A stretch of DNA of 64,000 nt, from the NCBI GenBank assembly GCA_036802765.1, contig DAIRVP010000001.1:2153-66152 (forward strand), written 5' to 3'. A model generated the notes under the pieces. That model searched no databases and had not been told where the DNA came from. It was given only the letters and a program-made list of their open reading frames with translations. Made by a program: the position numbers and the translations under genes. Origin of the DNA: Candidatus Rokuibacteriota bacterium. Its GTDB lineage: Bacteria; Methylomirabilota; Methylomirabilia; Rokubacteriales; CSP1-6. Shown in pieces: positions 5,894 to 36,551 of the stretch (within the stretch, counting starts at the first letter, position 1; each line of letters opens with the position of its first letter).

Positions 5894-6298
5894 TGACGCG
5901 TCCTCCTTCCGCTCAGATGAGGGCTCGAGATCAGAGCCGCTTGTACGGAGCGAACGACATGCCACCGAGTGCGGCTGGCCGCCTCCTTGCACCTGTTGCA
6001 ATCCTTGCCGCACTGCTGCCGGTTGCGCGCGTCGGCGCCGCCGACCCGACACTGAGCGACATCGCGAGCTGTAACCAGGAGGCGGCGCGCCGGGCGCCGA
6101 CATCACGCAGCCCGGAAACACGGGGACCAGCACCGAGAAGACGGATCCCAGCGGGGCGGTGATCACGCAGTCGCCCGACCCGCTGCTGAGGGGCATGGAC
6201 GCGGAGAAGGCGAACGACACCGCGTATCGAACGGCCTATCGCGAGTGCATGCGCGCCAAGGGCGCGCGCTGAATGGAGCGGCGACTTATACTGCCCGC

Positions 6299-18736: not shown

Positions 18737-19354
18737 CTACTGCAGCGGCGAGAACGAGGACGGCAGGCAGATCTTCGTCTCCTGCGTGATCAGCCGATCG
18801 GCGCCGCCCGGCGGCGGCCACACGCCCTTCTTGCGGGCCTCGTCACGGATCTGCATGCGCTGATCCAGGCTCTGGTATGCCCAGATGTGCACGAAGCCGT
18901 TGGCGCGCCCGAACTCCACGCCGCCCGCAAACACCACCGGCGAGAGCTTGATGCGATCCGGCAGCTTCTCGCTCCAGCCCTTCGCGGTGGCCGGGAGCGA
19001 CCCTCCCTTGAGGGTGTAGTAGCGGATCTCGAAGATCGGGCCCATCCGGCCGGGCTGCGGCGTGGGCACGAAATCGAACGGCGAGATGATCTCCGAGCTC
19101 ATCGTACGGATGAACTCCTGGATCTTCGGCGGCCAGTTCGGGTCCTTGGAGGCCTCGGCGCGGATGCTCGCGCGCTCCGCGAGGTCCTTGTACCCCCAGA
19201 TGTGGATGATCTCGTTGAGCGGCCCGATCTCCGTGTGCAGGAAAGCCGTGAGCGGGGAGTACTTCTTGCGGTGCTCGTACGCCTCGCCGTACCGCTTCTC
19301 GACCTCAGCCAGGCTACCGGGCACGATACCGTAGGTGCGGATCTCGTAGATCAT
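18737..19354 (-). CDS. NIPSNAP-family protein (tandem NIPSNAP domains)
   Basis: MIYEIRTY...IWGYKDLAERASIRA, repeated twice. Confidence 0.75.
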   Translation of the reverse strand: MIYEIRTYGIVPGSLAEVEKRYGEAYEHRKKYSPLTAFLHTEIGPLNEIIHIWGYKDLAERASIRAEASKDPNWPPKIQEFIRTMSSEIISPFDFVPTPQPGRMGPIFEIRYYTLKGGSLPATAKGWSEKLPDRIKLSPVVFAGGVEFGRANGFVHIWAYQSLDQRMQIRDEARKKGVWPPPGGADRLITQETKICLPSSFSPLQ

Positions 19355-19536
19355 GCGCTCTCCTTTCAGACTCCGAACGGTTCAAGGCCGCCCATGCGGC
19401 GCCCAGCCTACGAGGGTGCCGGCCGGGCGTCAACCGGGATGCAGATTGTCTTCCTCGCCGAGCGGCGGTAGCATCCCCGCACTCGTCTCGCGTCGCACGA
19501 ACGTCCGCGCCCCGTGACATCACAGGAGGACTGCTC

Positions 19537-20202
19537 ATGACGACCCCGCGCTCGCGCATCATCGCGAGCAGTGACCTCGGCTGGCAGGAATTCCGGCCTG
19601 GCATCAGCTTCAAAATTTTGTGGGAAGACCCCGCCACGAAACGGCGGGCGCAGATGACGCGCTTCGCGCCGGGCGCCCGGCTGCCTCAGCATCGGCACCT
19701 CGGGGACGAGCTGATCTTCGTCATCGAGGGCGCGCTGACCGACGAGGCGGGAACGGTCACCGCCGGCAACGTCGTGTACCGGCCCAACGGGTGCATCCAC
19801 AACGTCTCGACGCAGAACGGCGCGACGGCCCTCGCCGTGCTCACCGGCGACATCGAGCCGACCGACGACGCGGCCGGCGCGGCGCGCTCGCAGATCGTCA
19901 CGCTGAGCGAGCGGCCGTGGGTCGACGCGCGCCCGGGCGTGCGCCAGAAGCGGATCTGGGAGGACAAATCCACCGAGCGCCGCGCGATTCTGGCGCGCTT
20001 CGAGCCGGGTGCGAAGCTCCCGCTGCATCGTCACGTCGGCGACGAGCTGATCTTTCTGCTCGAGGGCTCCAATGCGGACGAATCGGGCGTCGTGGCCACC
20101 GGCAACCTGAACTACCGCCCGAACGGCTGCGTCCACAGCGTGACGACCCAGAACGGCGCAACGGTATTCGCCGTCGTCTGGGGTCATACAGAACCGGTCT
20201 GA
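19537..20202 (+). CDS. Tandem-cupin protein (ChrR-like cupin domains)
   Basis: Two repeats of ...RF.PGA.LP.HRH.GDELIF..EG...DE.G....GN..YRPNGC.H. Confidence 0.7.
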   Translation: MTTPRSRIIASSDLGWQEFRPGISFKILWEDPATKRRAQMTRFAPGARLPQHRHLGDELIFVIEGALTDEAGTVTAGNVVYRPNGCIHNVSTQNGATALAVLTGDIEPTDDAAGAARSQIVTLSERPWVDARPGVRQKRIWEDKSTERRAILARFEPGAKLPLHRHVGDELIFLLEGSNADESGVVATGNLNYRPNGCVHSVTTQNGATVFAVVWGHTEPV

Positions 20203-20213
20203 GAGGAGTCGAC

Positions 20214-21281
20214 ATGGAGATTCCACGCACGATGAAGGCGACCGTCCTCGTCGCGCCGCACCGCTTCGAGCTGCAAGAGCGGCCCGTGCCGGTGCCCGGC
20301 GACGAAGACGTGCTCGTTCGCGTGCGCGCCTGCGGCGTCTGAGGCACAGATCTGAAAATCATCCACACCGGCATGCCCCAGATGCCGCCGTACGGCGAGT
20401 TCATCTTCGGGCACGAGTACGCGGGCGACGTCGTTGCCATCGGCCGGACCGTGGACGAGTTTCAGGTCGGCGACCGGGTGGTCGTCGAGGCGCACATGGG
20501 CTGCCGTCGCTGCGAGAACTGCATTCGTGGCCTGTACACCGCGTGTCTGAACTACGGCAACGCCAAGCGCGGACACCGCGCGAACGGCTTCACCACCAAC
20601 GGCGGGCTCGCGGAATACGCCGTGAACCACGTCAACACGCTCTATCGGATCCCCGAGGGCGTCTCGTACGAAGAAGCGACGGTCGTGATGACGTCCGGCA
20701 GCCCGCTGTTCGGTCTCGAGAACGCCGGCGGATACTTTGCCGGTGAGACCGTGGCTGTGCTCGGGCCCGGACCGATCGGGCTGATGGCGATCCAGCTGGT
20801 GAAGGCGCTCGGCGCGACGCGCGTGATCCTGACCGGCACGCGAGCCTCGCGGCTGGCCATGGGGCGTCAGCTCGGCGCCGATGTGATCGTGAACAGTCGC
20901 GAGCAAGATCCGATCGAGGCGGTGATGACGGCGACCGGTGGCAAGGGCGCCGACCTCGTCATCGACTGTGCGGGCGCCGACGAGACGTTCGATCAGTCGC
21001 TGAAGATGACGAAGTCGGGCGGCAAGGTGCTGCTCGTCGCGTTCTATCACGGCCCGGTGACCGCCGACGTCAGTCACGCTGTACGCCGCAACGTGACGAT
21101 CTACACCGAGCGCGGCGAGGGCGGCACCAGCGTGGGGCGCGCGCTCGCGCTGCTGGCGGCCGGTCGCCTCACCGCCAAGCCGCTGATCACGCACCAGTTC
21201 CCGCTCTCCCGCGTGCACGAGGCGTTCGACGTGCTCGAAAAACGGATCGGCGATCCTCTGAAAGTCGTTCTCAATCCGTGA
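20214..21281 (+). CDS. Zn-dependent alcohol dehydrogenase (MDR family) with an in-frame TGA at 20340-20342 replacing the catalytic Zn-ligand Cys (candidate Sec or nonsense)
   Basis: ORFs 20214..20342 and 20373..21281 share one frame. Read-through gives VRVRACGV-U-GTDLKIIHTG...GHEYAG...CRRCENC. RBS GAGGAG. Confidence 0.6.
20369..20387 (+). other. Weak hairpin (6-bp stem ccggca(u)/a(u)gccg... loop gccccag) 27 nt after the ADH UGA
   Basis: Seen in the sequence. There is no U in the loop. Less SECIS-like than the other two. Confidence 0.2.
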
Positions 21282-22222
21282 GGCGTGCGCTCGGGCTCGC
21301 CGCCCTCCTGCTGCTGGCAGCAGTCGCGCCGGCGACGGCGTTTCCCGACAAGCCGCTCGAGCTGACCGTGCTCTTCGGGGCCGGCAGCGCCGCGGACCTG
21401 CTCGCGCGCAAGCTCGCGGAGCTCGCTGGGCGCGACCTCGGCCAGCCCGTGGCGGTCGTGAATCGCACCGGCGCCGGCGGCGCGCTCGGGTACACCTACG
21501 TGAAGAGCCAGCCCGCCGACGGCCACGCGCTGGTGTGGAACAGCAACAGCGTCAGCACCGCCTATCACGCCGGCAACATGAAGCTCGACTACAACGCATT
21601 CGCCGGCGTGGCGACGTTGACGAGCGAGCCGGTGTCGCTGGCGGTCAAAGCGGATGCGCCGTGGAAGGCCATCCGCGAGCTGCTCGCGCATGCGAAGGCG
21701 CATCCGGGTCAGGTGCGCATCGGCAACTCGGGCCGCGGCAGCTTCACGCATCTCGTCGCCGTCGCGCTGGAGAACCGCGCCGGCGTCAAGCTGACTCATG
21801 TGCCGTTCGGCCGCGAGCTCGCGGTGACGACGGTGCTCGGCGACAAGATCGAGGCGAGCGTGCAGCTGCCCGCGGAGATCATGGCGCAGATCACCGGCCG
21901 ACAGGTCCGGGTCCTGGCGGTGAGCGGCAACAAGCGCCTCGCCTCCCTGCCCGACGTGCCGACGCTCAAAGAATCCGGCGTCGATCTCACGATGACGCTG
22001 TGGCGGGGCGTGGCGGTGCCGAAGGGCACGCCTCCGGCCGTGATCGTGCGGCTCGAGCGCGCGTTCACACAGGCAGCGCAGAGCGCCGAGTTCCGCGACT
22101 TCGCGACGCGCATGGGCGCCGTCGTCGACGTGCGCGGCGCGGCCGACTTCGATGCGTTCATCGCGCGCGACGACCGCGAGATCGCCGCGCTAATGGAGCA
22201 GATCGGGCTCAGGAAGCAGTAG
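21278..22222 (+). CDS. tctC: Tripartite tricarboxylate transporter substrate-binding protein TctC
   Basis: Bug/TctC family. GTG overlaps the ADH stop. Confidence 0.85.
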   Translation: MRRALGLAALLLLAAVAPATAFPDKPLELTVLFGAGSAADLLARKLAELAGRDLGQPVAVVNRTGAGGALGYTYVKSQPADGHALVWNSNSVSTAYHAGNMKLDYNAFAGVATLTSEPVSLAVKADAPWKAIRELLAHAKAHPGQVRIGNSGRGSFTHLVAVALENRAGVKLTHVPFGRELAVTTVLGDKIEASVQLPAEIMAQITGRQVRVLAVSGNKRLASLPDVPTLKESGVDLTMTLWRGVAVPKGTPPAVIVRLERAFTQAAQSAEFRDFATRMGAVVDVRGAADFDAFIARDDREIAALMEQIGLRKQ

Positions 22223-22224
22223 CG

Positions 22225-22692
22225 GTGGGCCGCGACCGCTGGAGCGCGGCCGGGCTCGCACTGCTGGCCATCATGTATCTCCTCGTCGCCCGGCGTTATC
22301 CCCTCGACACGCTCGCCACGCCAGGCCCGGGCGTCATCCCGCTGATCGCGGGAGTCGCGCTGCTCGCGACGGCGATCTGGCTGTTGATCGTCGCGAGAAC
22401 CGCGAGGCCGGCTCGTGATGTGGGCGGCCTGAGCGGGAGCGGCGCGGCTCCGACACGCCCGATCGAATCGGTGCCTGTTCTCAGGTCGCCGTTCGTGCTG
22501 ACCGCGGCGCTCATCCTCTACGCGGCGCTGCTTCCGCGACTCGGGTTCATCGCCTCCTCGTTCGCACTCGTCGTGCTCGCCTCGCGGCTCATGGGCGCGC
22601 GTGGCTGGTGGCGTCCCGTCGTGCTCGGGCTCGGCGTTGCCGCCACCGCTTACCTGCTCTTCGCGCGCTGGCTCGGCGTGCCGCTGCCGTGA
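22225..22692 (+). CDS. tctB: Tripartite tricarboxylate transporter TctB (small membrane subunit)
   Basis: 4-TM 155-aa protein between tctC and tctA. GTG start. Confidence 0.6.
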   Translation: MGRDRWSAAGLALLAIMYLLVARRYPLDTLATPGPGVIPLIAGVALLATAIWLLIVARTARPARDVGGLSGSGAAPTRPIESVPVLRSPFVLTAALILYAALLPRLGFIASSFALVVLASRLMGARGWWRPVVLGLGVAATAYLLFARWLGVPLP

Positions 22693-24167
22693 GCGAGCTC
22701 TTCGTCGCGCTGACACCGGCGAATCTGCTCGCGTGCTTCGTCGGCACGGTGCTCGGCACGATCGTCGGCGTGCTGCCCGGGCTCGGGCCCGCCGGCGCGA
22801 TGGCCCTGGTGCTGCCGCTCACGATCAAGCTAGGGCCGACGGCCGGTCTGATCATGCTCGCCGGCATCTATTACGGCGCGATGTACGGCGGCTCGACGAC
22901 GTCGATCCTCGTCAACGTGCCCGGCGAGGCGGCGAGCGTCGTGACCACGATCGACGGGTATCGCCTTGCGCGAAAAGGCCGCGCCGGTGCCGCGCTCGCC
23001 ATCGCTGCGATCGCGTCGTTCGTCGCGGGCACGATCAGCGTCGTCGCGCTGCAAGTCGCCGCGCCGTTCGTCGCTCGGGCGGCGCTCGCGTTCGGTCCCG
23101 CGGAATATTTCGCCTTCGCACTGCTCGGTCTCGTGCTGCTCGCGAATCTCACCGGCGGCTCGCGCGCGAAATCGCTCGCGATGGTGCTCACCGGTCTCAT
23201 GCTGTCCACGGTCGGCATGGACCCGCTGGGCGGCACGGTGCGGTTCACGTTCGATCTGGCCGGCGCGCAGGCCGGGCTCAGCTTCGTCGCCGTCACGACG
23301 GGACTCTTCGGTGTCGCCGAGGTGCTTGCGAGCATGGCCGAGCCGGCGGCAAGCAGCGCCGTCGCCCGCGTGCGCTTCCGCGATCTCTATCCGAACCGCG
23401 AGGAGCTGCGTCGCTCGGTGCCGCCGATGCTGCGCGGCACCGTGCTCGGCTTTCTCGTCGGCCTCGTACCGGGACCGGCCGCGACGATCGCGTCGTTCGT
23501 GTCGTACGGCATCGAAAAAAAGGTAAGCAGACATCGTCGCGAGCTCGGCACCGGCGCCATCGAAGGCGTCGCCGGCCCCGAGGCGGCGAACAACGCGGCC
23601 GCCGGTGGCGGGATGATTCCACTACTCTCGCTCGGGCTGCCGTTCACGCCGTCGACGGCGGTGCTGCTGAGCGGGATGCTGCTGATGAGCGTGACGCCGG
23701 GGCCCTTTTTGTTGCGCGACCATCCGAGCGTTTTCTGGGGCGTGATCGGATCCTTCTACGTCGGCAACGTGATGCTGCTCCTGCTCAACCTGCCGCTGGT
23801 CGGCGTCTTCGCGCGCGTCGCCACGATTCCGCCGAAGTATCTGATGCCCGGCGTGCTCGTGCTCTGCGCGGTGGCCGCGTACTCGGACAACAACAACATC
23901 TTCGACGTGTGGGTCATGGTCGTCGCGGGCATCGCCGGCTGGGCGATGCGCGCGCTCGATTTCTCTCCCGCGCCGCTGGTGCTCGGACTCGTGCTCGGCC
24001 CGGTGCTCGAGCGCTCACTGCTGCAGGCGCTGACGATCGCGCGCGGCGAGGTCCGCGGCCTGTGGGCATCGGGCCCCGCCGCGGTCATGCTGGCGGCCGC
24101 CGTGGTCGCCTTCGTCGCGCCGGGTCTCGTGGCGCTGGTCCGCCGAAGCGCCACGCGGACGACTTAG
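22689..24167 (+). CDS. tctA: Tripartite tricarboxylate transporter permease TctA
   Basis: Polytopic membrane protein. GTGA overlap with tctB. Confidence 0.85.
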   Translation: MSELFVALTPANLLACFVGTVLGTIVGVLPGLGPAGAMALVLPLTIKLGPTAGLIMLAGIYYGAMYGGSTTSILVNVPGEAASVVTTIDGYRLARKGRAGAALAIAAIASFVAGTISVVALQVAAPFVARAALAFGPAEYFAFALLGLVLLANLTGGSRAKSLAMVLTGLMLSTVGMDPLGGTVRFTFDLAGAQAGLSFVAVTTGLFGVAEVLASMAEPAASSAVARVRFRDLYPNREELRRSVPPMLRGTVLGFLVGLVPGPAATIASFVSYGIEKKVSRHRRELGTGAIEGVAGPEAANNAAAGGGMIPLLSLGLPFTPSTAVLLSGMLLMSVTPGPFLLRDHPSVFWGVIGSFYVGNVMLLLLNLPLVGVFARVATIPPKYLMPGVLVLCAVAAYSDNNNIFDVWVMVVAGIAGWAMRALDFSPAPLVLGLVLGPVLERSLLQALTIARGEVRGLWASGPAAVMLAAAVVAFVAPGLVALVRRSATRTT

Positions 24168-24197: not shown

Positions 24198-24593
24198 GTG
24201 AATCGTCGGCTCATCAGCTCAGGCTCGACATTCGAACGAGAGATCGGTTACTCGCGAGCGGTCGTCGATGGCGAATGGGTGTTCGTCTCGGGGACGACCG
24301 GCTACGACTACCAGGCGATGACGATTTCGGACAACCTGCTCGAGCAAACCGAGCAGTGCTTGCGCAACATCAAATCTGCGCTCGAGCAGGCCGGCGCCTC
24401 CTTTGCGGACGTCGTGCGCGTCACCTACATCCTCCCTCGGAGCGACGACTTCCCGGCGTGCTGGCCCGTCCTCCGGAAATATTTCGGTGACGTTCGACCG
24501 GCGGCGACGATGATTTCGGCGGGGCTGGCCGACCCCAGGATGCGGATCGAGATCGAAGTCACGGCGCGCCGTCGGGCGGCGGCGGTGGTATAA
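24198..24593 (+). CDS. ridA: RidA/YjgF-family reactive-intermediate deaminase
   Basis: 131 aa, GTG start, RBS AAGGAGG. Confidence 0.8.
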   Translation: MNRRLISSGSTFEREIGYSRAVVDGEWVFVSGTTGYDYQAMTISDNLLEQTEQCLRNIKSALEQAGASFADVVRVTYILPRSDDFPACWPVLRKYFGDVRPAATMISAGLADPRMRIEIEVTARRRAAAVV

Positions 24594-24602
24594 GTCGGGA
24601 CC

Positions 24603-26288
24603 ATGACAAGCGCAGAGCCCATGTACGACGTTGTCTGGCCGCTCGCCCCGTCCGCCGCACCGCCGGGATCACTCGCGGCGCGTTCCCAGGATCTTCGCGG
24701 CAAAACCGTCGGTGAGCTATGGGATTACCTGTTCAAGGGCGAGGAGATCTTTCCCCTCATCCGAACGGCGCTCGAGGCCCGCTATCCCGGTATCCGCTTC
24801 GTCGAGTTCGAGACCTTCGGCTCGACGCACGGCCGCGACGAGAAAGAGCTCGCAGCGACGCTGCCCGGACTGCTGCGCCAGCACGGCTGCGACGCGGTGA
24901 TCTCCGCCGTCGGCGCCTGAGGATCGTGCACGCCCGCCGTGTTGCGGGCCGCCGCGATCGCCGAGCGCGCCGGAGTGCCGAGCGTCTCTATCGTCACGAC
25001 ACCGTTCATGCAGCAGGCCGCGGTCGTGTCCAAGGGCGTCGGCCTGCCGTCGCTGCCGATCGCTGAGTACCCCGGCGTGCCGATGACCGACGGCTCGGAC
25101 GCCGTCGCACGAAAGATCGACGCGCTGTTGCCACAGATCGTGGCGGGCCTCGCCGGCGCCCGCGACGTCGTGCGCACCGCAGTCGCCGAGCCGGGGCCGC
25201 GCGACATCGTGGCGCGTGGCACGCTCGACGAGGTCCAGGAGCTCTATCACCGCAATCTTTGGAGCGACGGGCTGCCGGTGATTCCCCCGACGATCGACCG
25301 CGTCGAGCGCTTTCTCGCTCAAACGCGGCGCGCACCAGACGAAGTGATCGGACGGCTGCTGCCCGAGAACCGTGCGGCCACCGTCTGGAGCATCGCGGTC
25401 AACGGCGTCATGGCAGGCTGCCGGCCCGAATACATGCCGGTCCTCGTTGCTATCGTGGAAGCCATCGCGGAGCCGATCTTCCGCGTCGAGGACGCCGGCT
25501 CGACGCCGGGCTGGGAGCCGCTCGTGATCGTGAGCGGCCCCATCGCCAGGCGTCTCGACCTCAATCACGGTCAGGGCGTGATGCGTGTGGGGCGCCAGGC
25601 CAACACGAGTCTCGGTCGCTTCTTGCGGCTCTACCTTCGCAACGTCGCGGGGCTGCGAATTCCGCCCGGCGCGGGCGACAAGGGCGGCATCGCGGCCTCG
25701 TTCAACGTGGCGCTGGCCGAAGACGAAGACGCCGCTGCCGCGCTGGGATGGCCGACGTTCGGCGCGGACCAAGGCTTCACGCGCGACGACAGCGTGGTCA
25801 CCGTGCAGAGCGTGGTGAGCATCAGCCCGCCGATCTACTCCGCCGGCACGCGCGCGCTCGAGCATGCGCGCATCCTCGCCGAGGTGTTCGGCGGCGCGTG
25901 CAGCTACTGGTCGTCGATCGGCATGAAGTACGCGCGCTGGGAGCCGCTGCTCGTGCTGGGCCCGTCGATCGCGCGTGTGATCGCCGACGACGGCTGGTCG
26001 AAGGACGATCTGCGCCGTTACCTCCACGAGCACGTGACGATCACCGCACGCCAGGCCGAGACGTATGCGCTGCAGGTCGGCGCAACGTCGTTCACGCTCG
26101 ACGCCCACGTCAAGGCCGGCGTGCTGCCCGCCTCCTACGCGACGTCCAGCGATCCGGAACGCGCGGTGCCGGTGTTCGTGCAGCCGGAGAAGATCGGGAT
26201 TCTCGTCGCCGGCGATCCCGGCCGCAATCAGTCCAAAGGCTACGTCAACAACCACATTCAGGGTGGCCGCATCAGCAAGAGGGTTTGA
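24603..26288 (+). CDS. Candidate selenoprotein with a U-G-S-C motif (in-frame TGA 24918-24920) and a long C-terminal domain of unknown function
   Basis: ORFs 24603..24920 and 24939..26288 share one frame. GC3 bias is continuous through the whole 561 codons. Context reads ...HGCDAVISAVGA-U-GSCTPAVLRAAAIAERAGVPS... Confidence 0.55.
24932..24949 (+). other. SECIS-like hairpin (gcccgc / CGUGUU / gcgggc) starting 12 nt after the UGA
   Basis: Seen directly. GU in the apical loop. Confidence 0.45.
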
Positions 26289-26289: not shown

Positions 26290-26796
26290 ATGGATGCCAA
26301 TGCGAAGAAAACCGCGCTGCGAATGATTCCGTACGGCCTCTACGTCCTCACCGCCGCAGACAAGAGCGGCGGCCGCGTGGCCGCCGGCACCGTGAACTGG
26401 GTGACGCAGGTCGCGTTCGAGCCGCCGCTGGTCGTCGTCGGCGTGAAGACGGACTCGCACGCGCATCCACTCATCAAGGAAACGAAGGCGTTCGCGCTGA
26501 ACGTGCTCGGCAAGGGTCAGCAGGCGATGGCATTCACATTCTTCAAACCGGCCGAGCTCGCCGGCGACACCGTCTCCGGTCAGCCATTTCGTCGCGGCAC
26601 GACGGGGGCGCCGATTCTGAGCAACGCGCCGGCCTTCGTCGAGTGCACGCTCGAGACGACCGTCGAACAAGGCGATCACTCGATCTTCGTCGGCCGCGTC
26701 GTCGAGGCCGGGGTGGCGAAGGCGCCGGACGGGCGACCCGATGACGCCACGCTGTGGCTGCGCGATCTCGGCGACAAGGTTTTCTACGGAGGCTAG
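26290..26796 (+). CDS. Flavin reductase-like (FMN-binding split-barrel) protein
   Basis: MDANAKKTALRMIPYGLYVLTA... Start overlaps the upstream stop. Confidence 0.8.
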   Translation: MDANAKKTALRMIPYGLYVLTAADKSGGRVAAGTVNWVTQVAFEPPLVVVGVKTDSHAHPLIKETKAFALNVLGKGQQAMAFTFFKPAELAGDTVSGQPFRRGTTGAPILSNAPAFVECTLETTVEQGDHSIFVGRVVEAGVAKAPDGRPDDATLWLRDLGDKVFYGG

Positions 26797-26800
26797 GCGC

Positions 26801-28327
26801 ATGAGGCACGTCATGAGAGTCCTGCTCGGTGCGGCGCTCGTCGTCGCGCTGGTGCCGGTGGTCGGCCTCGCCGCCGAAGGCGAGCTGCGTTATGGCCTGC
26901 ACGTCACCGTTCCCGCCAAGTGGCTGGACCCCGGGGAAACCGAGGCCTTCAGTACGCCGTACATGGTGCTTTACGCCGTTCACGACGCGCTGGTGAAGCC
27001 GATGCCGGCCGGCATGACCACGCCGAGCCTTGCGGAATCCTGGAATGAATCGAAAGACCATCTGACCTACACGTTCACGCTGCGCAAGAACGCCAAGTTC
27101 CACGACGGCTCGCCAGTGACCGCCGAGGACGCGAAGTTCTCGTTCGAGCGTTACAAGGGCGCCTCCGCCACGCTGCTGAAGGAAAAGGTCAAAGAGGTTC
27201 AGGTTGTCTCGCCGGGCCAGGTGCGAGTCGTCCTCAAAGAGCCGTGGCCCGACTTCATGCTCTTCTACGGCACCACCGCCTCCGGCGCCGGCTGGATCGT
27301 GCCGAAGCACTACGTCGAGAAGGTCGGCGACGACGGGTTCAAGCGCGCGCCGATCGGCGCCGGTCCGTACAAGGTCGTCTCGTTCTCGCCCGGCGTCGAG
27401 CTGGTCCTCGAGGCGTTCGACGGCTATTGGCGAAAGGCTCCGAGCATCAAGCGGCTCGTCATGCGCACAATGACGGAAGAGAGCACCCGTGCGGCCGCGG
27501 TCAAGCGCGGCGAGGTCGATCTCGCGTATCTCTTCGCCGGACCCGTGGCCGAAGAGCTGAAGCGCACGCCGGGCATCAAGCTGGAGGCGCCCCTGCTCAC
27601 CGGCGCCTTCTGGCTCGAGCTGCCGGAGCAGTGGGACCCGAAATCACCGTGGCACGACCGGCGCGTGCGGCTGGCCGCCAGCCACGCCATCGATCGCGCC
27701 GCCATCAATCAGGCCGAAACGCTGGGATACTCGAAGCTCAACGGCTCGATCGTGCCGCGCATCTTCCAGTTCGCGGTGCCGGTCGAGCCCCCGGCCTACG
27801 ACCCGGCCCGCGCGAAGAAGCTTCTGGCCGAAGCCGGATATCCCAACGGCTTCGACGCGGGAGACTTCTATCCGTTTCCCCCGTACAACTCGATGGCGGA
27901 GGCGATCCAGGGCTACCTGCAGGCGGTCGGGATCAGGAGTCGTCTGCGCGCGATGGAGCGCGCGGCGTACTTTGCCGCGTGGCGGGAGAAGAAGCTGCAC
28001 GGCATCATCCTCGTCATCACGTCGGTCATGGGGAACGCGGCCACGCGTCTGGAACCGTACGCGACCAAGCAGGGCGTCTACGCCTACGGTTCGCTGCCAG
28101 AGATCGACGATCTCTTCTACCGTCAGGCCAAGGAGGTGGACGTCAAGAAGCGCGAGGCGCTCGTGCAGCAAATGCAGAAAATCATGACCGAGCACGTCTT
28201 GAACGTTCCCATCTACGATCTCGCATTCATCTGGGCCGTCGGTCCGCGCGTCGAGGTCAGCGGCGCCAACGCGATTCCCGGCTTTCCGTACTCGGCGCCG
28301 TTCGAGGATCTGAAGCTGAAGAAATGA
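26801..28327 (+). CDS. ABC transporter substrate-binding protein, family 5
   Basis: Signal peptide. RBS GGAGG. Confidence 0.85.
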   Translation: MRHVMRVLLGAALVVALVPVVGLAAEGELRYGLHVTVPAKWLDPGETEAFSTPYMVLYAVHDALVKPMPAGMTTPSLAESWNESKDHLTYTFTLRKNAKFHDGSPVTAEDAKFSFERYKGASATLLKEKVKEVQVVSPGQVRVVLKEPWPDFMLFYGTTASGAGWIVPKHYVEKVGDDGFKRAPIGAGPYKVVSFSPGVELVLEAFDGYWRKAPSIKRLVMRTMTEESTRAAAVKRGEVDLAYLFAGPVAEELKRTPGIKLEAPLLTGAFWLELPEQWDPKSPWHDRRVRLAASHAIDRAAINQAETLGYSKLNGSIVPRIFQFAVPVEPPAYDPARAKKLLAEAGYPNGFDAGDFYPFPPYNSMAEAIQGYLQAVGIRSRLRAMERAAYFAAWREKKLHGIILVITSVMGNAATRLEPYATKQGVYAYGSLPEIDDLFYRQAKEVDVKKREALVQQMQKIMTEHVLNVPIYDLAFIWAVGPRVEVSGANAIPGFPYSAPFEDLKLKK

Positions 28328-30423
28328 GCTATTCGCTCGGCATCGACATCGGCGGCACGTTCACCGACATCGTCGTCTACGACCACGCGCGCGGCCGACA
28401 GTACAGCCGCAAGCTGCTGACCACGCACGACGACCCTGCGCGCGCCGTCGCCACCGGCGTCGACGGATTGCTGCGTCGCCATCGCCTGCCCGCTCGGGAC
28501 TTCACGCGCGTGGTGCACGCCACCACGCTGTTCACCAACGCGCTGATCGAGCGCCGTGGTGCCGTCACGGGACTCATCACCACCACGGGCTTTGCCGATG
28601 CGCTGGAAATCGGCCGCGAGCGGAAGTTCGAGCTCTACGACCTCAATATCGTGAAGCCCGAGCCGCTCGTGCCGCGAAATTTGCGAGCAGAGGTGCGCGA
28701 GCGCCTGAGAGCCGACGGATCGGTGGAGCGACGGCTCGACGCGCGGGAGGTGGCGGCCCGCGCGAAGTCGCTCGTCGCCGCGGGTGTGACGTCCATCGCC
28801 ATCGTGTTCCTGCATTCGTATGCGAACCCGCGTCACGAGGCCGAGGCGGCACGCGTCATCGCCCGCCGCCACCGCGGCGTGTCGGTCACCACATCGCACG
28901 AGGTCGCGCCGGAGATCCGCGAATACGAGCGGGCATCGACGACGGTCGCCAACGCGTACATCAAGCCGCTGGCCCGCCAGTATCTCGACGCGATGGCCCG
29001 ACGCGTGGCCGCGCTGGGCATCCCGGCGCCGCTGCTGCTGATGCTCTCGAGCGGTGGGCTGACGCACGTGGCCGAAGCCGAACGCACACCGGTGCAGATG
29101 CTCGAGTCCGGCCCGGCCGCCGGCGCGCTTGCCGCTGCGTTCTTCGGCCGCGAGGACAGCCGCGGCAACCTGCTCGCCTTCGACATGGGCGGGACGACGG
29201 CGAAGCTGTCACTCGTGGACGGCGGCGAGCCGCTGACCGCCTACGCCTTCGAGGCCGCGCGACAGAAACGGTTCATGGAAGGCAGCGGGCTGCCGATCCG
29301 GATCTCGACCATCGAGCTCATCGAGATCGGCGCCGGCGGCGGTTCCATCGCGTCCGTCGACGAGATCGGGCTGCTCAAGGTCGGCCCGCGCAGCGCCGGA
29401 TCACACCCGGGTCCGGCGTCCTACGGCCTCGGAGGCGCCGAGCCGACGGTGACCGACGCGGACTTCCTGCTCGGTTACCTCAATCCCGAGTACTTCGCGG
29501 GCGGCGAAGTGCGCGTCGACATCGACGCCGCGCGCCGAGCCATCGACCGGCTCGCCAAGCAGGTGGGTCTCCCGCAGACGGACGTCGCGTGGGGCATCCA
29601 CGACGTCGTCAACGAGAACATGGCCTCCGCCGCGCGCGTGCACGTCGCCGAGCGCGGCCGCGATCCGCGGGATTACGCCTTGCTCTGCACGGGCGGCGCC
29701 GGTCCGGTGCACGCGTGGGGCGTCGCGCGCAAGCTCGGCCTGCACCAGATTATCTGCCCGCCGGCCGCGGGCGTCGCGTCCGCCCTTGGTCTGCTCGTCG
29801 CGCCCGCGCGGGTCGATCGCATGGCCACGGTCGGCATCCGGCTCGACCGCGACAGTCCCGTGGCGCTGGAAGACGCGTTCCAGCGATTGGAAGAGGAGGC
29901 CCGCGCGGTGATGGCAGACACGGGACTGAAGCTCGAAACCGCGACCGTCACGCGCCTGGCCGACGGGCGGTTTCTCGGACAAGGCTTCGATCTCGTCGTC
30001 GATCTGCCGCCGGGCCCGTACATGGACAACACGGAGAGTCGGCGACGACTGGCCGACGCGTTCGAAGCGGCGTATCGCGACAAGTTCGCGCTCACACCGC
30101 CCGACGTGCCGATCGAGTTCATCAACATCCGCGTCGCCGTGCGAGCCCCGGTCGCGGGCGCCGACGTCACCGTCCATGGCGAGACGGCGGACGGCGGCCG
30201 CGCGGTGAAAGGCGCGCGCCCGGCGTACTTCGCCGAGCGCCGCGGCTTCGTCGACACCACGGTGTACGACCGTGGTCGCCTGGTGTCGGGCGACGAGGTG
30301 CGCGGGCCGGCGGTCGTCGAGGAAGAAGGCTCGACGCTGGTCATCGGGCCCGGCGGGGTCGCGCGCGTGGCGCCGAGCGGCAATCTCGTCGTGACGCTCC
30401 CCGACCCGGAGTCGCGACCATGA
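28324..30423 (+). CDS. hyuA: Hydantoinase/oxoprolinase A subunit (HyuA family)
   Basis: MSYSLGIDIGGTFTDIV... ATGA overlap. Confidence 0.85.
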   Translation: MSYSLGIDIGGTFTDIVVYDHARGRQYSRKLLTTHDDPARAVATGVDGLLRRHRLPARDFTRVVHATTLFTNALIERRGAVTGLITTTGFADALEIGRERKFELYDLNIVKPEPLVPRNLRAEVRERLRADGSVERRLDAREVAARAKSLVAAGVTSIAIVFLHSYANPRHEAEAARVIARRHRGVSVTTSHEVAPEIREYERASTTVANAYIKPLARQYLDAMARRVAALGIPAPLLLMLSSGGLTHVAEAERTPVQMLESGPAAGALAAAFFGREDSRGNLLAFDMGGTTAKLSLVDGGEPLTAYAFEAARQKRFMEGSGLPIRISTIELIEIGAGGGSIASVDEIGLLKVGPRSAGSHPGPASYGLGGAEPTVTDADFLLGYLNPEYFAGGEVRVDIDAARRAIDRLAKQVGLPQTDVAWGIHDVVNENMASAARVHVAERGRDPRDYALLCTGGAGPVHAWGVARKLGLHQIICPPAAGVASALGLLVAPARVDRMATVGIRLDRDSPVALEDAFQRLEEEARAVMADTGLKLETATVTRLADGRFLGQGFDLVVDLPPGPYMDNTESRRRLADAFEAAYRDKFALTPPDVPIEFINIRVAVRAPVAGADVTVHGETADGGRAVKGARPAYFAERRGFVDTTVYDRGRLVSGDEVRGPAVVEEEGSTLVIGPGGVARVAPSGNLVVTLPDPESRP

Positions 30424-32030
30424 GCGCGCGGCTGGATGCGGTCACGCTCGAAGTGTTGTGGACGCGCATCATCTCGGTCGTCGACGAGGCGGCCAAGGCG
30501 ATCGTGCGGACGTCATTCTCCACGCTGTCCAACGAGGCGAACGACTTCGCGTGCGTGCTGACCGACGCGCGGGGCCGCGCGCTCGCCCAGAACACCGGCT
30601 CCATCCCGTCGTTCATCGGCACGCTGCCGGCGACCGTGCGCCACTTCATCCGCGAGCTCGGCGTCGACTCGATGAAGCCGGGTGACGTGCTGATCACCAA
30701 CGACGCGTGGATGGGCACCGGCCATATGAGCGACGTCTCGGTGCTCAAACCCATCTTCCATCGCGACCGTCTCGTCGCCTTCTCGGCGACGACGTCGCAC
30801 ATGCCGGACATCGGCGGTCGCATCCGGGCCATCGAGGCGCGCGAGATCTTCGAGGAAGGTCTGCACATCCCGCTGGCGCGCCTGAGGCGCGATGGCCGCG
30901 TGGACGACACACTGGTCGCGCTGATTCGCGCCAACGTTCGCACGCCCGACCAGACGATGGGAGACATCTGGGCGCAGGTGAGCGCCAATGAGCTGATGGA
31001 GCGCCGCGTGCGGGCGCTGATGGACGATTACCATCTCGACACGCTGGAGACGCTCGGGGACGAGCTCTTCAGCCGCTCGGAGCGCGCGATGCGCGACGCG
31101 ATCCGCGCCGTGCCGGATGGCACGTATCGTTATGGCTTTCGCACCGACGGCACCGGCGCGCCCTTCGAGTTCAAGATCGCGCTCACGGTGAAGGGCGACG
31201 AGATCATTGCCGACTACACGGGCACCTCGCCGCAGCAGCCGCGCGCCATCAATTGCGTGATGGCCTACACGTACGCGATGACGGCGTACGCGGTGCGGTG
31301 CGTGCTGCTGCCGGGGCTGCCGAACAACGAGGGCATGTACCGGCCGATTACCGTCGAAGCGCCCGAAGGCTCCATCCTGAACCCGCGCTTCCCCGCCGCG
31401 GTGGTGAGCCGCGCCACCACGGGCCACTACGTGCCCGCGCTCGTGCTCGGCGCTCTGCATCGCGTGATCCCCGATCGCGTGATGGCGGGCGTCGGCTCGC
31501 CGCTGTGGGCGCTGAGCCTGTCCAGCACACGCGCCGACGGCAAGCCCTACACGACGGTGCTGTTCTTCAACGGCGGGATGGGCGCCACGCCGCTCAAGGA
31601 CGGCGAAAACGTGCTGTCGTGGCCCAGCAACATCTCGTCGACGCCGGTCGAGGTCGCCGAGCGCCAGAGCCCGCTCTTCTTCCACTACAAGCGGCTGCGC
31701 CCGAGCTCAGGCGGAGCCGGCCGCTTCCGCGGCGGCCTCGGTCAGGACATTTCGATCGAGAGCCGCTCGGCGCGGCCGATGGTGCTCAGTGTGATGGCCG
31801 AGCGCACGGCGTACCCGGCGCCTGGTCTCGCCGGCGGTGCCGCCGGCGGCTTGGGCGACGTGCAAATCAACGGTCGCCGCATCGACAACCGCAGGCAGCA
31901 CATTCTCGAGCGCGGCGATCGCGTGCTCGTGCGCACACCTGGCGGGGGCGGCTACGGCCCACGGCGGCAGCGCAGCAAAAATCTGATCGCGCGGGATCGT
32001 GCGCTGGGCTATGTGACCCGCGGCCGCTGA
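30420..32030 (+). CDS. hyuB: Hydantoinase/oxoprolinase B subunit (HyuB family)
   Basis: ATGA overlap with hyuA. HyuB signature regions. Confidence 0.85.
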   Translation: MSARLDAVTLEVLWTRIISVVDEAAKAIVRTSFSTLSNEANDFACVLTDARGRALAQNTGSIPSFIGTLPATVRHFIRELGVDSMKPGDVLITNDAWMGTGHMSDVSVLKPIFHRDRLVAFSATTSHMPDIGGRIRAIEAREIFEEGLHIPLARLRRDGRVDDTLVALIRANVRTPDQTMGDIWAQVSANELMERRVRALMDDYHLDTLETLGDELFSRSERAMRDAIRAVPDGTYRYGFRTDGTGAPFEFKIALTVKGDEIIADYTGTSPQQPRAINCVMAYTYAMTAYAVRCVLLPGLPNNEGMYRPITVEAPEGSILNPRFPAAVVSRATTGHYVPALVLGALHRVIPDRVMAGVGSPLWALSLSSTRADGKPYTTVLFFNGGMGATPLKDGENVLSWPSNISSTPVEVAERQSPLFFHYKRLRPSSGGAGRFRGGLGQDISIESRSARPMVLSVMAERTAYPAPGLAGGAAGGLGDVQINGRRIDNRRQHILERGDRVLVRTPGGGGYGPRRQRSKNLIARDRALGYVTRGR

Positions 32031-32168: not shown

Positions 32169-33032
32169 GTGGCGAGCTTGTTGCTCTCACACACGCGCAT
32201 GCTCAATCTGAAATTCGTCATCGTCACCTCTGGTCGTCTCCCCGAAGCCTACTTCCTCGCATTCCACCTCGACTCGCGCAGGCAGCAATTCGCGATCGTC
32301 GACGTTGCTCGCCCTGCGGGCAGTTATCTGAACGTGCTGCGCCGGCTGCGTCGCTCGCGCGGCGCCCTGTATGTTGCCGATCTGCTGCTGGCGCGGCTGA
32401 CGGATCGGCTGCTGACCCCGATCGTGCGGCCCACGCTACCGCCGGGCTCCAGCGCCTTTCCCGAAGTCGACGCTGGGCGCATCGAACACATTCTCGCTCG
32501 GCACCCGCACATCGAGTGCACGGATCCTCACGCGCCCGAGGTGCTCGACTTCGTGCGCACGTTCGGCCCCGACTACATCCTGCTCGCCGGGTGCCCAATT
32601 CTGAAAGAGTGCTTCTACGGCCTTGCGCGCCGTGGCGCGCTGAACCGCCATCTGGGAATGCTGCCGGAGTTCCGGGGAGCGGACTGCCCATGGTGGGCCT
32701 TCGCGCTCGAGCAGCCCGACCGCGCCGGCTACTCGATCCACGTGGTCAGCGAGCGCGTGGACGCCGGCGACGTCGTGCTCCGGCGATGTGTGGCCGTTCA
32801 GGACGAGCCTTCGTTGCCTCGTTATCTGCGCCGACTCCGTCGCGAGGCGTCGCAAGCGTTCGTGGAGGTCGTCGATCAACTCCTTCACGGTGCGCCGCTG
32901 TCCAGCGAGCCGCAGAACGGCGCGGGACGCTACTATCCGCCCGCGGGACTCGTGACGCAGTTGCGTGCGTGCCGCAGCTACGCCCGCATCCTCCGCTCAG
33001 CGTCCCTGACGCTCACCCCAAAACGCGCGTGA
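32169..33032 (+). CDS. Formyltransferase-family protein (Formyl_trans_N-like)
   Basis: ...ILLAGCPILKE... and HPS-like motifs. The start may be at 32199. Confidence 0.55.
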   Translation: MASLLLSHTRMLNLKFVIVTSGRLPEAYFLAFHLDSRRQQFAIVDVARPAGSYLNVLRRLRRSRGALYVADLLLARLTDRLLTPIVRPTLPPGSSAFPEVDAGRIEHILARHPHIECTDPHAPEVLDFVRTFGPDYILLAGCPILKECFYGLARRGALNRHLGMLPEFRGADCPWWAFALEQPDRAGYSIHVVSERVDAGDVVLRRCVAVQDEPSLPRYLRRLRREASQAFVEVVDQLLHGAPLSSEPQNGAGRYYPPAGLVTQLRACRSYARILRSASLTLTPKRA

Positions 33033-34157: not shown

Positions 34158-34372
34158 GAGTGCCCTCCCAGATCCGGAATGGACAGCACCAGATGCAGCG
34201 ACCCACCGAGCTCGTTCAGTCGTCGCGGGTTCCAGCGCACGAACGCGGCGCGCTCCTCGTCGGTCAGCTCGGCCGCGCTCAGCGCGTCGGCCGGATCGCG
34301 GCGGAAGCGCTCGCGAAAGGCGGCGTCCTTCTTGAGCCGGTACAGCAGCACGTTGACGTCGTAACGGCTCAT
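34154..34372 (-). CDS. LigA-like small subunit of a class III extradiol dioxygenase
   Basis: 72 aa MSRYDVNVLLYRLKKDAAFRERFRRDPADALSAAELTDEERAAF... Confidence 0.55.
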   Translation of the reverse strand: MSRYDVNVLLYRLKKDAAFRERFRRDPADALSAAELTDEERAAFVRWNPRRLNELGGSLHLVLSIPDLGGHS

Positions 34373-35211: not shown

Positions 35212-35344
35212 CTCAGAACGTGGGGGGCCCCGACATGGCCCCCCAAATTGACCGAGCGAAGGGGCTACGCCCCCTCGGCCTCCCCGGCCAGCGCTCGTCC
35301 CGGCCCGGCAAAGCCGTGCCGGGCCTCGATCCGCGCTGCATCAC

Positions 35345-36439: not shown

Positions 36440-36551
36440 GCTTGGCCTCCTCGGCTTCCCAAACGTGCGACAACCCTACTCGGCCGGAGGGGCGGCGGTC
36501 AACGCCGCGCGTCGGCGCGGCGGCGGGACGCCGATTTGCCACGGGCGCCGC

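What the first reader, a model, noticed from the sequence alone, without database searches (positions are those of the whole stretch)
24603..26288. In-frame UGA inside a U-G-S-C motif: candidate UGSC-type selenoprotein with a SECIS-like hairpin
ORF 24603..24920 ends at TGA (24918-24920). ORF 24939..26288 continues in the same frame 18 nt later. G/C third-position bias is uninterrupted across all 561 codons, so the whole frame looks coding. Reading UGA as Sec gives ...HGCDAVISAVGA-U-GSCTPAV... The four-residue motif U-G-S-C is, as I recall, the motif that names the UGSC family of predicted selenoproteins from marine metagenome selenoproteome surveys. A 6-bp GC stem with a CGUGUU loop (24932..24949) begins exactly 12 nt after the UGA, which matches bacterial SECIS geometry (GU in the apical loop about 18-23 nt downstream). 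The segment around the Sec (hydrophobic strand, U/C-G-S/F-C/T, ...ERAGVPS...TT) resembles the ...VVLECQGFTG... segment of the AroM/racemase-like fragment at the window start. That suggests a racemase-like active-site Cys replaced by Sec.
Basis: partly seen in the sequence, partly recalled or inferred. Interest (0 to 1): 0.85.

Follow-up and report, generated by a model that had tools for sequence, protein, structure and literature searches.

The report
UGSC-family selenoprotein gene with SECIS

Summary
One frame runs from ATG 24603 through TGA 24918-24920 to the stop at 26286-26288. It encodes 561 codons with the motif U-G-S-C.

- **Family:** residues 10-183 match Pfam PF24696 (UGSC family, 98.7 bits against a cut-off of 25).
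- **Cys-form relatives:** full-length relatives of 570-590 aa carry Cys at the Sec column (CG[STG]C).
- **Conserved TGA:** across the window and 164 fetched loci from many phyla, 156 copies have an in-frame TGA at this column, 5 have TGC and 1 has TAG.
- **SECIS hairpin:** the hairpin at 24932-24949 starts 11 nt after the UGA. Synonymous-codon choice maintains it: Pro CCC 98.6% against 29.6% in the same genes, Arg CGG 96.5% against 23.6%, Leu UUG 75.8% against 12.2%.
- **Sec machinery:** selA, selB and tRNA-Sec lie beside homologues in 10-12 loci.
- **Independent check:** a separate assembly has the identical TGA.

The family, its UxxC motif and a fusion to an unnamed domain were described in 2008, and NCBI already names such proteins. 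This is a new member of a known kind. Its function is still unknown; I infer a selenol/thiol redox module serving an uncharacterised catalytic domain.

The parts
24603..26288 (+). Complete selenoprotein gene: 561 codons plus stop, one reading frame through an internal UGA
   Evidence: The N-terminus MTSAEPMYDVVWPL aligns with the N-termini of full-length Cys homologues. GC3 is 0.81 and 0.87 on the two sides of the UGA.
24918..24920 (+). UGA selenocysteine codon (residue 106), first residue of the U-G-S-C motif (24918-24929)
   Evidence: The same column holds TGA in 156 copies, TGC in 5 and TAG in 1. It is Cys in 17 of 18 rows of alignment A1, where the window's own row was written with C for Sec. 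An independent assembly has the identical TGA.
24932..24949 (+). SECIS upper stem-loop: GCCCGC / CGUGUU / GCGGGC, 11-nt spacer after the UGA, G22-U23 in the apical loop
   Evidence: All six pairs form in 82% of 141 distinct Sec-form segments, and each single pair forms in 86-100%. Synonymous codons are forced: CCC 98.6%, CGG 96.5%, UUG 75.8%, ACG 82.8%, against 29.6%, 23.6%, 12.2% and 38.3% in the same genes. Pair 15-32 switches from G-C to A-U in 9 sequences.
24922..24959 (+). Whole predicted hairpin, including a 7-bp lower stem (24922-24928 with 24953-24959) around a 3x3 internal loop
   Evidence: RNAfold gives -27.2 kcal/mol on 24915-24975 and the same structure at -23.6 on the 54-nt segment from the UGA. 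The lower stem's register differs between lineages. With the commonest register, 82.4% of cells pair, against 25-53% when the partners are slid.
24630..25151 (+). UGSC domain (residues 10-183), a Rossmann/flavodoxin-like alpha/beta domain with U106-x-x-C109 between a beta-strand and a helix
25194..26285 (+). C-terminal domain of 364 aa, probably the 'Unknown_1' of Zhang & Gladyshev 2008, not covered by Pfam
25419..25421 (+). Cys273 codon in the invariant motif NGVMAGCRPEY of the C-terminal domain
   Evidence: Invariant across 59 sequences and kept in stand-alone forms P0184, P0258 and P0234. It is Ala in the FTR-B fusion P0222.
24198..24593 (+). Upstream neighbour: RidA / L-PSP family gene, ending 9 nt before the selenoprotein start
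   Evidence: PF01042, E 1.8e-24. Found beside the close orthologues in 10 related loci.
26290..26796 (+). Downstream neighbour: flavin reductase-like gene, starting 1 nt after the selenoprotein stop
   Evidence: PF01613, E 2.1e-35. Present in 7 closely related loci at 95-100% identity. The gene in this position in the 86%-identical orthologue L081 is not homologous.
26741..28327 (+). ABC-type solute-binding protein (SBP_bac_5). The true start is probably near 26795.
   Evidence: PF00496, E 8.7e-78. Same position in L081. Found in 22 loci.
28324..32030 (+). Hydantoinase/oxoprolinase A (28324-30423) and B (30420-32030) subunit genes
   Evidence: PF01968, PF05378 and PF19278; PF02538 at E 3.5e-153. 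HyuA is found in 10 close-relative loci. Both follow the selenoprotein gene in L081.
21278..24167 (+). Tripartite tricarboxylate transporter genes: TctC 21278-22222 and TctA 22608-24167
   Evidence: PF03401 and PF01970. TctC-family genes lie near homologues in 41 loci.

Best explanation
24603-26288 is a single gene for a two-domain selenoprotein of the UGSC family.

**Decoding.** During translation, SelB carrying Sec-tRNA(Sec) binds the hairpin that begins 11 nt after UGA 24918-24920. Selenocysteine is inserted as residue 106, so the stop codon is read through.

**Inferred function.** U106 and C109 sit between a beta-strand and the N-terminus of a helix in a Rossmann/flavodoxin-like domain. 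They form a selenol/thiol to selenenylsulfide redox couple. This N-terminal module serves the 364-aa C-terminal domain, which is the substrate-handling part and carries the invariant Cys273. An NAD(P)H-dependent flavoprotein re-reduces the couple: thioredoxin-reductase-like in many homologue loci, possibly the adjacent flavin-reductase-like protein here. The closest mechanistic analogue is the UxxC centre of selenoprotein B (PrdB/GrdB), which cleaves a substrate bond reductively and is then recycled. The substrate is unknown. It is probably a small imported organic acid or amide, given the flanking transporters and the RidA and hydantoinase A/B genes.

**Shown:** one reading frame, family membership, Cys-aligned homologues, conserved UGA, a selected hairpin, and linkage to Sec machinery in relatives.

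**Inferred:** the redox-relay role, the reductant and the substrate class. I put about 0.35 on the specific reductase model.
For: - **Single frame and motif:**
- **Family:** Pfam UGSC, 98.7 bits against GA 25.
- **Homologue lengths:** more than 4500 homologues. Close ones are about 450 aa because gene callers start after the TGA. Those at about 50% identity are full length and carry Cys at the U column.
- **Conserved TGA:** 156 TGA, 5 TGC and 1 TAG in the window plus 164 loci, from Proteobacteria, Chloroflexi, Acidobacteria, Actinomycetota and others.
- **Hairpin:** kept in 82% of 141 distinct sequences and held by synonymous-site choice. 82.4% of cells pair, against 25-53% in slid controls. 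All four distinct Cys-form segments (from the 5 TGC copies) break at least one of the six pairs.
- **Sec machinery:** selA (PF03841, E 8e-158), selB (SelB-specific domains) and tRNA-Sec flank homologues in 10-12 loci. A thioredoxin-reductase-like gene does so in 22 loci and a glutaredoxin-like gene in 8.
- **Independent assembly:** identical TGA.
- **Redox-module reading:** the C-terminal domain also occurs alone, or fused to a ferredoxin:thioredoxin reductase catalytic-chain domain in place of UGSC.
- **Selenoprotein B link:** 14 of 18 family members weakly hit the PrdB model, 8 GrdF, 7 GrdB and 5 GrdH. hhalign places UxxC on the UxxC of a PrdB-like read.
Against: - No Sec-decoding gene or tRNA-Sec lies in this 64-kb window, so the machinery is unverified for this genome.
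- Rfam finds no SECIS family here, and the hairpin alone is not unusually stable.
- The NCBIfam UGSC equivalog model is missed (57.4 against 125 bits).
- The PrdB/GrdB link is weak. For this protein the E-values are 0.03-0.05, and the hhalign probability is 11.5%. No PrdA/GrdE-type pyruvoyl partner lies nearby.
- The flavin reductase neighbour is kept only in very close relatives.
- Cys273 is Ala in the FTR-B fusion.
- No experiment on any family member was found in the papers searched.
Confidence: 0.9

Rival explanations
1. The locus is a broken or split gene. A nonsense mutation, or two separately initiated genes, yields a 105-aa UGSC fragment and a 449-aa protein starting at GTG 24939. No selenocysteine is inserted.
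For: Gene callers annotate exactly this pair in every assembly examined. No Sec machinery is visible in the window.
Against: The same TGA sits at the same column in 156 copies from many phyla. Both halves are under protein-level conservation and are contiguous in Cys forms. The GTG at 24939 is the conserved Val codon inside the hairpin loop, not a conserved start. The hairpin is held by synonymous selection only in TGA forms. Sec machinery is adjacent in relatives.
Confidence: 0.02
2. The UGA is read through by something other than Sec. Examples are a suppressor or near-cognate tRNA inserting Trp, Cys or Gly, or a reassigned genetic code.
For: Nothing specific. It would also explain an open frame across the TGA.
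Against: TGA is used as an ordinary stop in this window, including by this gene at 26286-26288 and by other genes. The downstream hairpin has bacterial SECIS geometry and is under selection. selA, selB and tRNA-Sec(UCA) lie next to homologues. Cys, the sulfur analogue of Sec, occupies the column in non-TGA forms.
Confidence: 0.03
3. It is a genuine selenoprotein, but the UxxC domain acts as a general thiol-disulfide oxidoreductase or peroxide/antioxidant protein, the 'Trx-like' reading in the literature. It is not the recycling centre of a substrate-specific reductase, and the C-terminal domain is regulatory or a scaffold.
For: The 2008 paper suggests a Trx-like fold and a redox function. TrxR-like and Grx-like neighbours would suit a general redox protein equally well.
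Confidence: 0.3

Closest known systems
UGSC-containing selenoprotein family (Zhang & Gladyshev; Pfam PF24696, NCBIfam NF041046), including the 'UGSC/Unknown_1 fusion' of PMC2398784
   Same: It has the U-G-S-C (UxxC) motif at an in-frame UGA and passes the Pfam model. TGA forms far outnumber TGC forms here (156 to 5), as Sec forms did in GOS (255 to 21). It is abundant in non-marine samples. It is fused to a conserved, Cys-bearing domain of unknown function. NCBI gives full-length homologues (P0081, P0094) the family name.
   Different: The N-terminal domain scores only 57 bits against the 125-bit cut-off of the short-form equivalog model, so it is a divergent long-form subfamily. The literature's 'likely Trx-like fold' does not match the Rossmann/flavodoxin-like model. 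I could not check that 'Unknown_1' is the same domain, because Figure S1A is held only as an image.
Selenoprotein B of the glycine/sarcosine/betaine and D-proline reductases (GrdB, GrdF, GrdH, PrdB; TIGR01917, TIGR01918, TIGR04483)
   Same: The local pattern is shared: beta-strand, U-x-x-C, helix, then E..G-(I/V)P-(S/T)V and another strand. The window has CDAVISAVGA-U-GSC-TPAVLRAAAIAERAGVPSV, and a GOS PrdB-like read has VDVVLLVPN-U-PVC-HQTVSLVARHLEANKIPTV. Weak hits recur from 14 of 18 family members. hhalign puts U on U. This gives a worked example of a UxxC centre that attacks a substrate and is recycled by a dithiol or flavoprotein system (my own knowledge of the Stickland reductases).
   Different: Scores are far below every cut-off (13 bits against 65-602). 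The rest of the proteins do not align. No pyruvoyl partner (PrdA/GrdE) or GrdA/C/D genes lie nearby. The hosts here are mostly aerobic soil and freshwater lineages rather than amino-acid-fermenting anaerobes.
Escherichia coli fdhF-type bacterial SECIS
   Same: A hairpin lies directly downstream of the UGA within the coding sequence. The spacer to the upper stem is 11 nt, and G-U sits in the apical loop at positions 22-23 counted from the U of UGA. In fdhF these are G23 and U24, and the minimal element lies 11 nt downstream (my recollection of Liu et al. 1998, not checked here).
   Different: No bulged U is evident in the 6-bp upper stem. The loop is 6 nt (CGUGUU). No Rfam model matches. SelB binding is untested.

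Membership tests
UGSC selenoprotein family | In-frame UGA within a U-G-S-C / UxxC motif, with coding signal on both sides | tested here: met
UGSC selenoprotein family | Match to the Pfam family model PF24696 above its gathering score | tested here: met
   98.7 bits against 25, residues 10-183 on profile positions 2-170 of 172.
UGSC selenoprotein family | Match to the NCBIfam equivalog NF041046 above its curated cut-off | tested here: not met
   57.4 bits against 125. Homologues that NCBI itself names UGSC score 41-52 bits. The long form lies outside this short-form model.
UGSC selenoprotein family | Homologues with Cys aligned at the Sec position | tested here: met
   C in 17 of 18 rows of alignment A1 (the window's own row was written with C for Sec) and S in one. 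The second Cys of the motif is invariant. TGC in L030, L084, L140, L148 and L149.
UGSC selenoprotein family | Bacterial SECIS hairpin just downstream of the UGA | tested here: met
   Hairpin at 24932-24949 with an 11-nt spacer. Conservation, synonymous-codon bias and some compensatory change are seen across 138-141 sequences. Not detected by Rfam.
UGSC selenoprotein family | Sec-decoding machinery (selA, selB, selC, selD) in the same genome | not testable with these tools
   None lies in the 64-kb window, and the rest of the genome is not available. In homologue loci, selA (10 loci), selB (11) and tRNA-Sec (11) lie next to the gene.
UGSC selenoprotein family | Selenium actually incorporated into the protein | not testable with these tools
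   This needs 75Se labelling or mass spectrometry.
Selenoprotein B family (GrdB/GrdF/GrdH/PrdB) | Match to the family or subfamily models above their cut-offs | tested here: not met
   12-14 bits against cut-offs of 65-602 for this protein. The best E-value among 18 relatives is 1.6e-4.
Selenoprotein B family (GrdB/GrdF/GrdH/PrdB) | The UxxC redox centre aligns with the family's Sec | tested here: inconclusive
   hhalign aligns 49 columns at 33% identity and puts UxxC on UxxC, but E is 0.0026 and probability 11.5%.
Selenoprotein B family (GrdB/GrdF/GrdH/PrdB) | Genomic partners: a pyruvoyl proprotein (PrdA/GrdE) and GrdA/GrdC/GrdD | tested here: not met
   The annotated neighbours in the window are TctC/A, RidA, flavin reductase, SBP5 and hydantoinase A/B. 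The top neighbour clusters across 159 loci contain none of the partners.
Thioredoxin-fold oxidoreductases (the literature's suggestion) | Thioredoxin-like fold around the UxxC motif | tested here: not met

The most novel reading that the evidence does not exclude
The long-form UGSC proteins may be the catalytic selenoproteins of a large, unrecognised class of substrate reductases in aerobic soil and freshwater bacteria. On this reading they are mechanistic cousins of the Stickland selenoprotein B enzymes. A PrdB-like UxxC module, recycled by a dedicated TrxR-like flavoprotein, drives chemistry in a C-terminal domain whose fold has no solved relative. In many Burkholderiales the whole Sec-decoding apparatus (selA-selB-selC) would then be kept mainly for this one enzyme.
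Probability: 0.3. Interest if true: 0.6.

Novelty: new member of a known kind. Interest (0 to 1): 0.3.

Why it matters
**For annotation.** In every assembly examined, this gene is split into a 99-105 aa piece and a piece of about 450 aa. Those records should be merged and marked as Sec-containing.

**For biology.** UGSC is among the most abundant bacterial selenoprotein families in environmental data, yet nothing is known about what it does. The evidence gathered here gives concrete, testable leads towards a function:
- heavy dominance of Sec over Cys forms;
- a codon-level signature of the SECIS hairpin;
- Sec machinery and a TrxR-like gene beside homologues;
- a faint PrdB/GrdB-like redox centre;
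- a large C-terminal domain with no Pfam family and no solved structural relative.

None of this changes the fact that the family itself is already known.

Tried and rejected
- **Rfam:** a scan of the whole window at gathering thresholds found no family, so no SECIS model applies.
- **Single-sequence folding:** the z-score for the hairpin is 0.05. This is uninformative in 68% GC sequence, so I moved to comparative tests.
- **AroM/racemase kinship:** rejected.
- **PDB by sequence:** the family profile found nothing at E<=1. A PrdB-like read found no solved relative either.
- **Foldseek against PDB:** no hit at E<=1e-3 for the full-length model.
- **Figure S1A of PMC2398784 (UGSC/Unknown_1):** held only as an image, and the sequence supplement is cut, so the identity of 'Unknown_1' could not be checked.
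- **Structure prediction of the read-through protein:** I used the Cys homologue P0060 and the window's own C-terminal domain instead.
- **Flavin reductase as a conserved partner:** the gene in the same position in the 86% orthologue L081 is not homologous. Conservation is limited to very close relatives.
- **Motif scan for SelD/SelB/SelA in the window:** negative, but this is a weak test.
- **Look-up of the 105-aa N-terminal product:** not on record.
- **Cys-form control group for the hairpin:** a metagenome scan seeded with Cys forms still returned almost only TGA forms, so the contrast rests on 4 sequences.
Full report
**Observation**

The sequence is as described. ATG 24603 opens a frame that meets TGA at 24918-24920 and then stays open to TGA 26286-26288. 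The mechanical ORF list shows 24603..24920 and 24939..26288 in the same frame, 18 nt apart. GC3 is 0.81 before and 0.87 after the TGA, with GC2 at 0.51 on both sides, so the coding signal is continuous. Reading UGA as U gives ...HGCDAVISAVGA-U-GSCTPAVLRA....

The hairpin GCCCGC/CGUGUU/GCGGGC lies at 24932-24949, with 11 nt between the UGA and the stem. RNAfold adds a 7-bp lower stem. On its own the fold is no better than shuffled sequence (z = 0.05). The hairpin therefore had to be judged by comparison with other loci.

**Family assignment**

The read-through protein, with C written for U, matches Pfam PF24696 'UGSC family' over residues 10-183 (98.7 bits, gathering score 25). It also matches NCBIfam NF041046 'UGSC family (seleno)protein', but at 57.4 bits this is below the 125-bit equivalog cut-off. 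Residues from about 198 to 561 match no Pfam family, even at E<=10.

A search of 5.8 billion proteins returned more than 4500 relatives. Those at 60-99% identity are about 450 aa and cover only 80% of the query. That is the pattern expected when gene callers restart after a Sec-UGA. Those at about 50% identity are 570-590 aa and cover 99%. Two of them, from Chelativorans alearense, are already named 'UGSC family (seleno)protein' by NCBI.

In alignment A1, which holds the window's protein (with C written for Sec) and 17 full-length relatives, the Sec column is C in 17 of 18 rows and S in one. The second Cys of the motif is invariant: CG[STG]C.

**The UGA is conserved**

I fetched 80 loci from species-representative genomes and 80 from metagenomes, plus four contigs found by exact-protein look-up. 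Across these and the window, the aligned codon is TGA in 156 copies, TGC in 5 and TAG in 1. The hosts include Burkholderiales, other Proteobacteria, Chloroflexi, Acidobacteria, Actinomycetota, Binataceae and Methylomirabilota.

A contig assembled independently from run SRR5689908 encodes the identical 449-aa downstream product. It is identical in DNA across the TGA and the hairpin. An error peculiar to this one assembly is therefore excluded, and a private nonsense mutation is excluded by the cross-phylum conservation.

**The hairpin is under selection as RNA**

I number from the U of UGA as position 1. The upper stem pairs 15-20 with 27-32, and the loop is 21-26. In 141 distinct Sec-form sequences, each pair forms in 86-100% of cases and all six form in 82%.

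Because the peptide TPAV(L/V/M)RA is itself conserved, I compared codon choice at these sites with the same amino acids elsewhere in the same genes.

| Codon | At the hairpin site | Background in the same genes |
|---|---|---|
| Pro CCC | 98.6% | 29.6% |
| Pro CCG | 0% | 55.7% |
| Arg CGG | 96.5% | 23.6% |
| Arg CGC | 0% | 48.3% |
| Leu UUG | 75.8% | 12.2% |
| Leu CUC | 0% | 28.5% |
| Thr ACG | 82.8% | 38.3% |

Each favoured third base is the one that pairs. Pair 15-32 changes from G-C to A-U in nine sequences, where Ala becomes Val and the Thr codon changes from ACG to ACA. With a common lower-stem register added, 82.4% of cells pair, against 25-53% when partners are slid by 1-3 columns. None of 500 shuffles reaches the observed number of double changes.

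The 5 TGC copies give four distinct Cys-form segments, and each loses at least one pair (CGC, AGG or GUC codons appear). The direction is as expected, but the sample is small. G22-U23 is invariant in the loop. The geometry matches what I recall of the E. coli fdhF minimal SECIS: the upper stem-loop lies 11 nt after the UGA, with GU in the loop. Rfam has no matching model.

**Sec machinery**

The window holds no tRNA. A motif scan found no SelD, SelB or SelA signature, although this is a weak test. The genome's competence therefore cannot be shown directly.

In relatives the link is close. Clustering the neighbours of 159 loci, followed by Pfam scans, identified several recurrent neighbours.

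| Neighbour | Loci |
|---|---|
| selA (PF03841, E 8e-158) | 10 |
| selB (GTP_EFTU plus SelB-specific barrel and winged-helix domains) | 11 |
| thioredoxin-reductase-like Pyr_redox_2 protein | 22 |
| glutaredoxin-like protein | 8 |

tRNA-Sec(UCA) is present in 11 of the 164 loci. In L004, L007, L009 and L010 a selA-selB-TrxR-like operon is divergently transcribed from the position immediately upstream of the UGSC gene; tRNA-Sec follows it in L004, L009 and L010 but was not detected in L007.

**Structure**

An AlphaFold2 model of the full-length Cys homologue P0060 is confident (pLDDT 90.7, pTM 0.91). The N-terminal domain alternates strands and helices. The C/UxxC motif lies between strand 97-103 and helix 108-121.

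**The C-terminal domain elsewhere**

A full HMMER scan of 1.84 billion cluster representatives found 4061 proteins at E<=1e-3 and 2641 at E<=1e-10. Four length classes appear:
- about 450 aa, which are Sec forms cut at the UGA;
- about 570 aa, which are Cys forms;
- about 350-390 aa, which are stand-alone forms;
- 700-1250 aa, which carry two or three copies.

Stand-alone forms have no Pfam hit and keep the motif MAGCRPEY. One form, P0222, carries a ferredoxin:thioredoxin-reductase catalytic-chain domain in place of UGSC; in it the motif Cys is Ala. Swapping one disulfide-reducing module for another suggests that UGSC is an electron-delivering redox module for this domain.

**A faint link to selenoprotein B**

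Fourteen of 18 family members give weak NCBIfam hits to PrdB (best E 1.6e-4). Eight hit GrdF, seven GrdB and five GrdH. The hits always fall on the segment around the Sec. The window's protein does so at E 0.03-0.05.

A PrdB-like read from the GOS supplement has ...VDVVLLVPN-U-PVC-HQTVSLVARHLEANKIPTV.... hhalign aligns this with ...CDAVISAVGA-U-GSC-TPAVLRAAAIAERAGVPSV..., U on U, over 49 columns at 33% identity, E 0.0026, probability 11.5%. This is suggestive, not established. No pyruvoyl partner genes lie nearby.

**Gene context in the window**

The order is as follows:
- TctC, 21278-22222
- TctA, 22608-24167
- RidA/L-PSP, 24198-24593
- the selenoprotein, 24603-26288
- flavin reductase-like, 26290-26796
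- SBP_bac_5, 26741-28327
- hydantoinase/oxoprolinase A, 28324-30423
- hydantoinase/oxoprolinase B, 30420-32030
- a formyltransferase-like gene

The intergenic gaps around the selenoprotein are 9 nt and 1 nt, which suggests one operon. The RidA-UGSC-flavin reductase-SBP5-HyuA order recurs in 7-10 closely related metagenome contigs. In the 86%-identical orthologue L081, SBP5 and HyuA/HyuB follow the gene, but the small gene in between is unrelated.

Across distant homologues the recurrent neighbours are solute-binding proteins (TctC in 41 loci, SBP5 in 22), further UGSC paralogues (31 loci), SDRs and PrpD-like proteins. That pattern, together with at least nine Sec-containing copies in one Chloroflexi MAG, looks like a substrate-diversified metabolic enzyme family.

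**What it most likely is and does**

Established: this is one gene for a long-form UGSC-family selenoprotein. Its UGA is decoded as Sec with the help of the hairpin at 24932-24949.

Inferred: U106/C109 form a redox couple that serves the C-terminal domain and is recycled by a flavoprotein. The nearest mechanistic precedent is the PrdB/GrdB UxxC centre. The substrate is unknown.

My confidence in the identity is about 0.9. My confidence in the specific reductase model is about 0.35. A general thiol-oxidoreductase role is the main functional rival.

**Comparison with what is known, and novelty**

Zhang & Gladyshev (PLoS Genet 2008, PMC2398784) list 'UGSC-containing' proteins with motif UxxC among the most abundant GOS selenoprotein families (255 Sec forms and 21 Cys forms). 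They note enrichment in non-marine samples and describe a 'UGSC/Unknown_1' fusion with a conserved Cys. Reviews from 2022 and 2026 still list the family with no function, and no functional study turned up.

The window's gene is therefore a new member of a known kind.

Noticed in passing
L025:1230-1232 (Actinomycetota MAG JALYMS010000293.1): This homologue has TAG, not TGA, at the Sec column (VGA*GSCMPAVMRAA), and the hairpin is kept (GCCUGC-CGUGAU-GCGGGC). This fits the Sec-UAG recoding with tRNA-Sec(CUA) reported for UGSC-motif selenoproteins of Geodermatophilaceae (as cited in PMC5330540). No tRNA-Sec lies within the 8.6-kb locus.
   Followed up: partly
L004, L007, L009, L010 (about 1100-5900); also L015, L018, L021, L039, L040: A selA-selB-thioredoxin-reductase-like operon sits directly beside the UGSC-long gene, usually followed by tRNA-Sec (detected in L004, L009 and L010 but not L007). 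In the first four loci it is divergently transcribed. These genomes may keep the Sec apparatus largely for this one protein.
   Followed up: partly
L003, L006, L008, L012, L014, L020, L034 (Chloroflexi MAG JACPQD01): One MAG carries at least nine TGA-containing paralogues of this gene, two of them as pairs on one contig. Tandem paralogues occur in 31 loci overall. In L023 a Cys form lies next to a Sec form.
   Followed up: no
P0222 (494 aa): A relative of the C-terminal domain is fused to a ferredoxin:thioredoxin reductase catalytic beta-chain domain (PF02943) in place of the UGSC domain. In it, the otherwise invariant Cys of MAGCRPEY is Ala.
   Followed up: partly
P0190, P0196, P0234, P0195: These proteins of 700-1250 aa contain two or three copies of the C-terminal domain, some with a UGSC domain plus pentapeptide repeats or a copper amine oxidase N-terminal domain.
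   Followed up: no
window 3-329 (+): The fragment at the window start is the C-terminal half of an AroM-family protein (PF07302, E 1.2e-26). It shows no detectable relation to the UGSC domain.
   Followed up: yes
window 18737-21281: Upstream genes are a tandem NIPSNAP protein (- strand), a ChrR-like cupin and a zinc-type alcohol dehydrogenase. None has a counterpart near the homologues.
   Followed up: partly
window 32169-36475: Downstream genes are a formyltransferase-like gene (+), a MetE-like cobalamin-independent synthase domain protein (-), a LigB-type extradiol ring-cleavage dioxygenase (-) and a second zinc-type dehydrogenase (-). This suggests an aromatic or amide catabolic neighbourhood.
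   Followed up: no
L081:9353-9847: In the 86%-identical orthologue, the small gene between the selenoprotein and SBP5 (164 aa, no Pfam hit on record) is unrelated to the window's flavin reductase. This slot in the operon has been swapped.
   Followed up: partly
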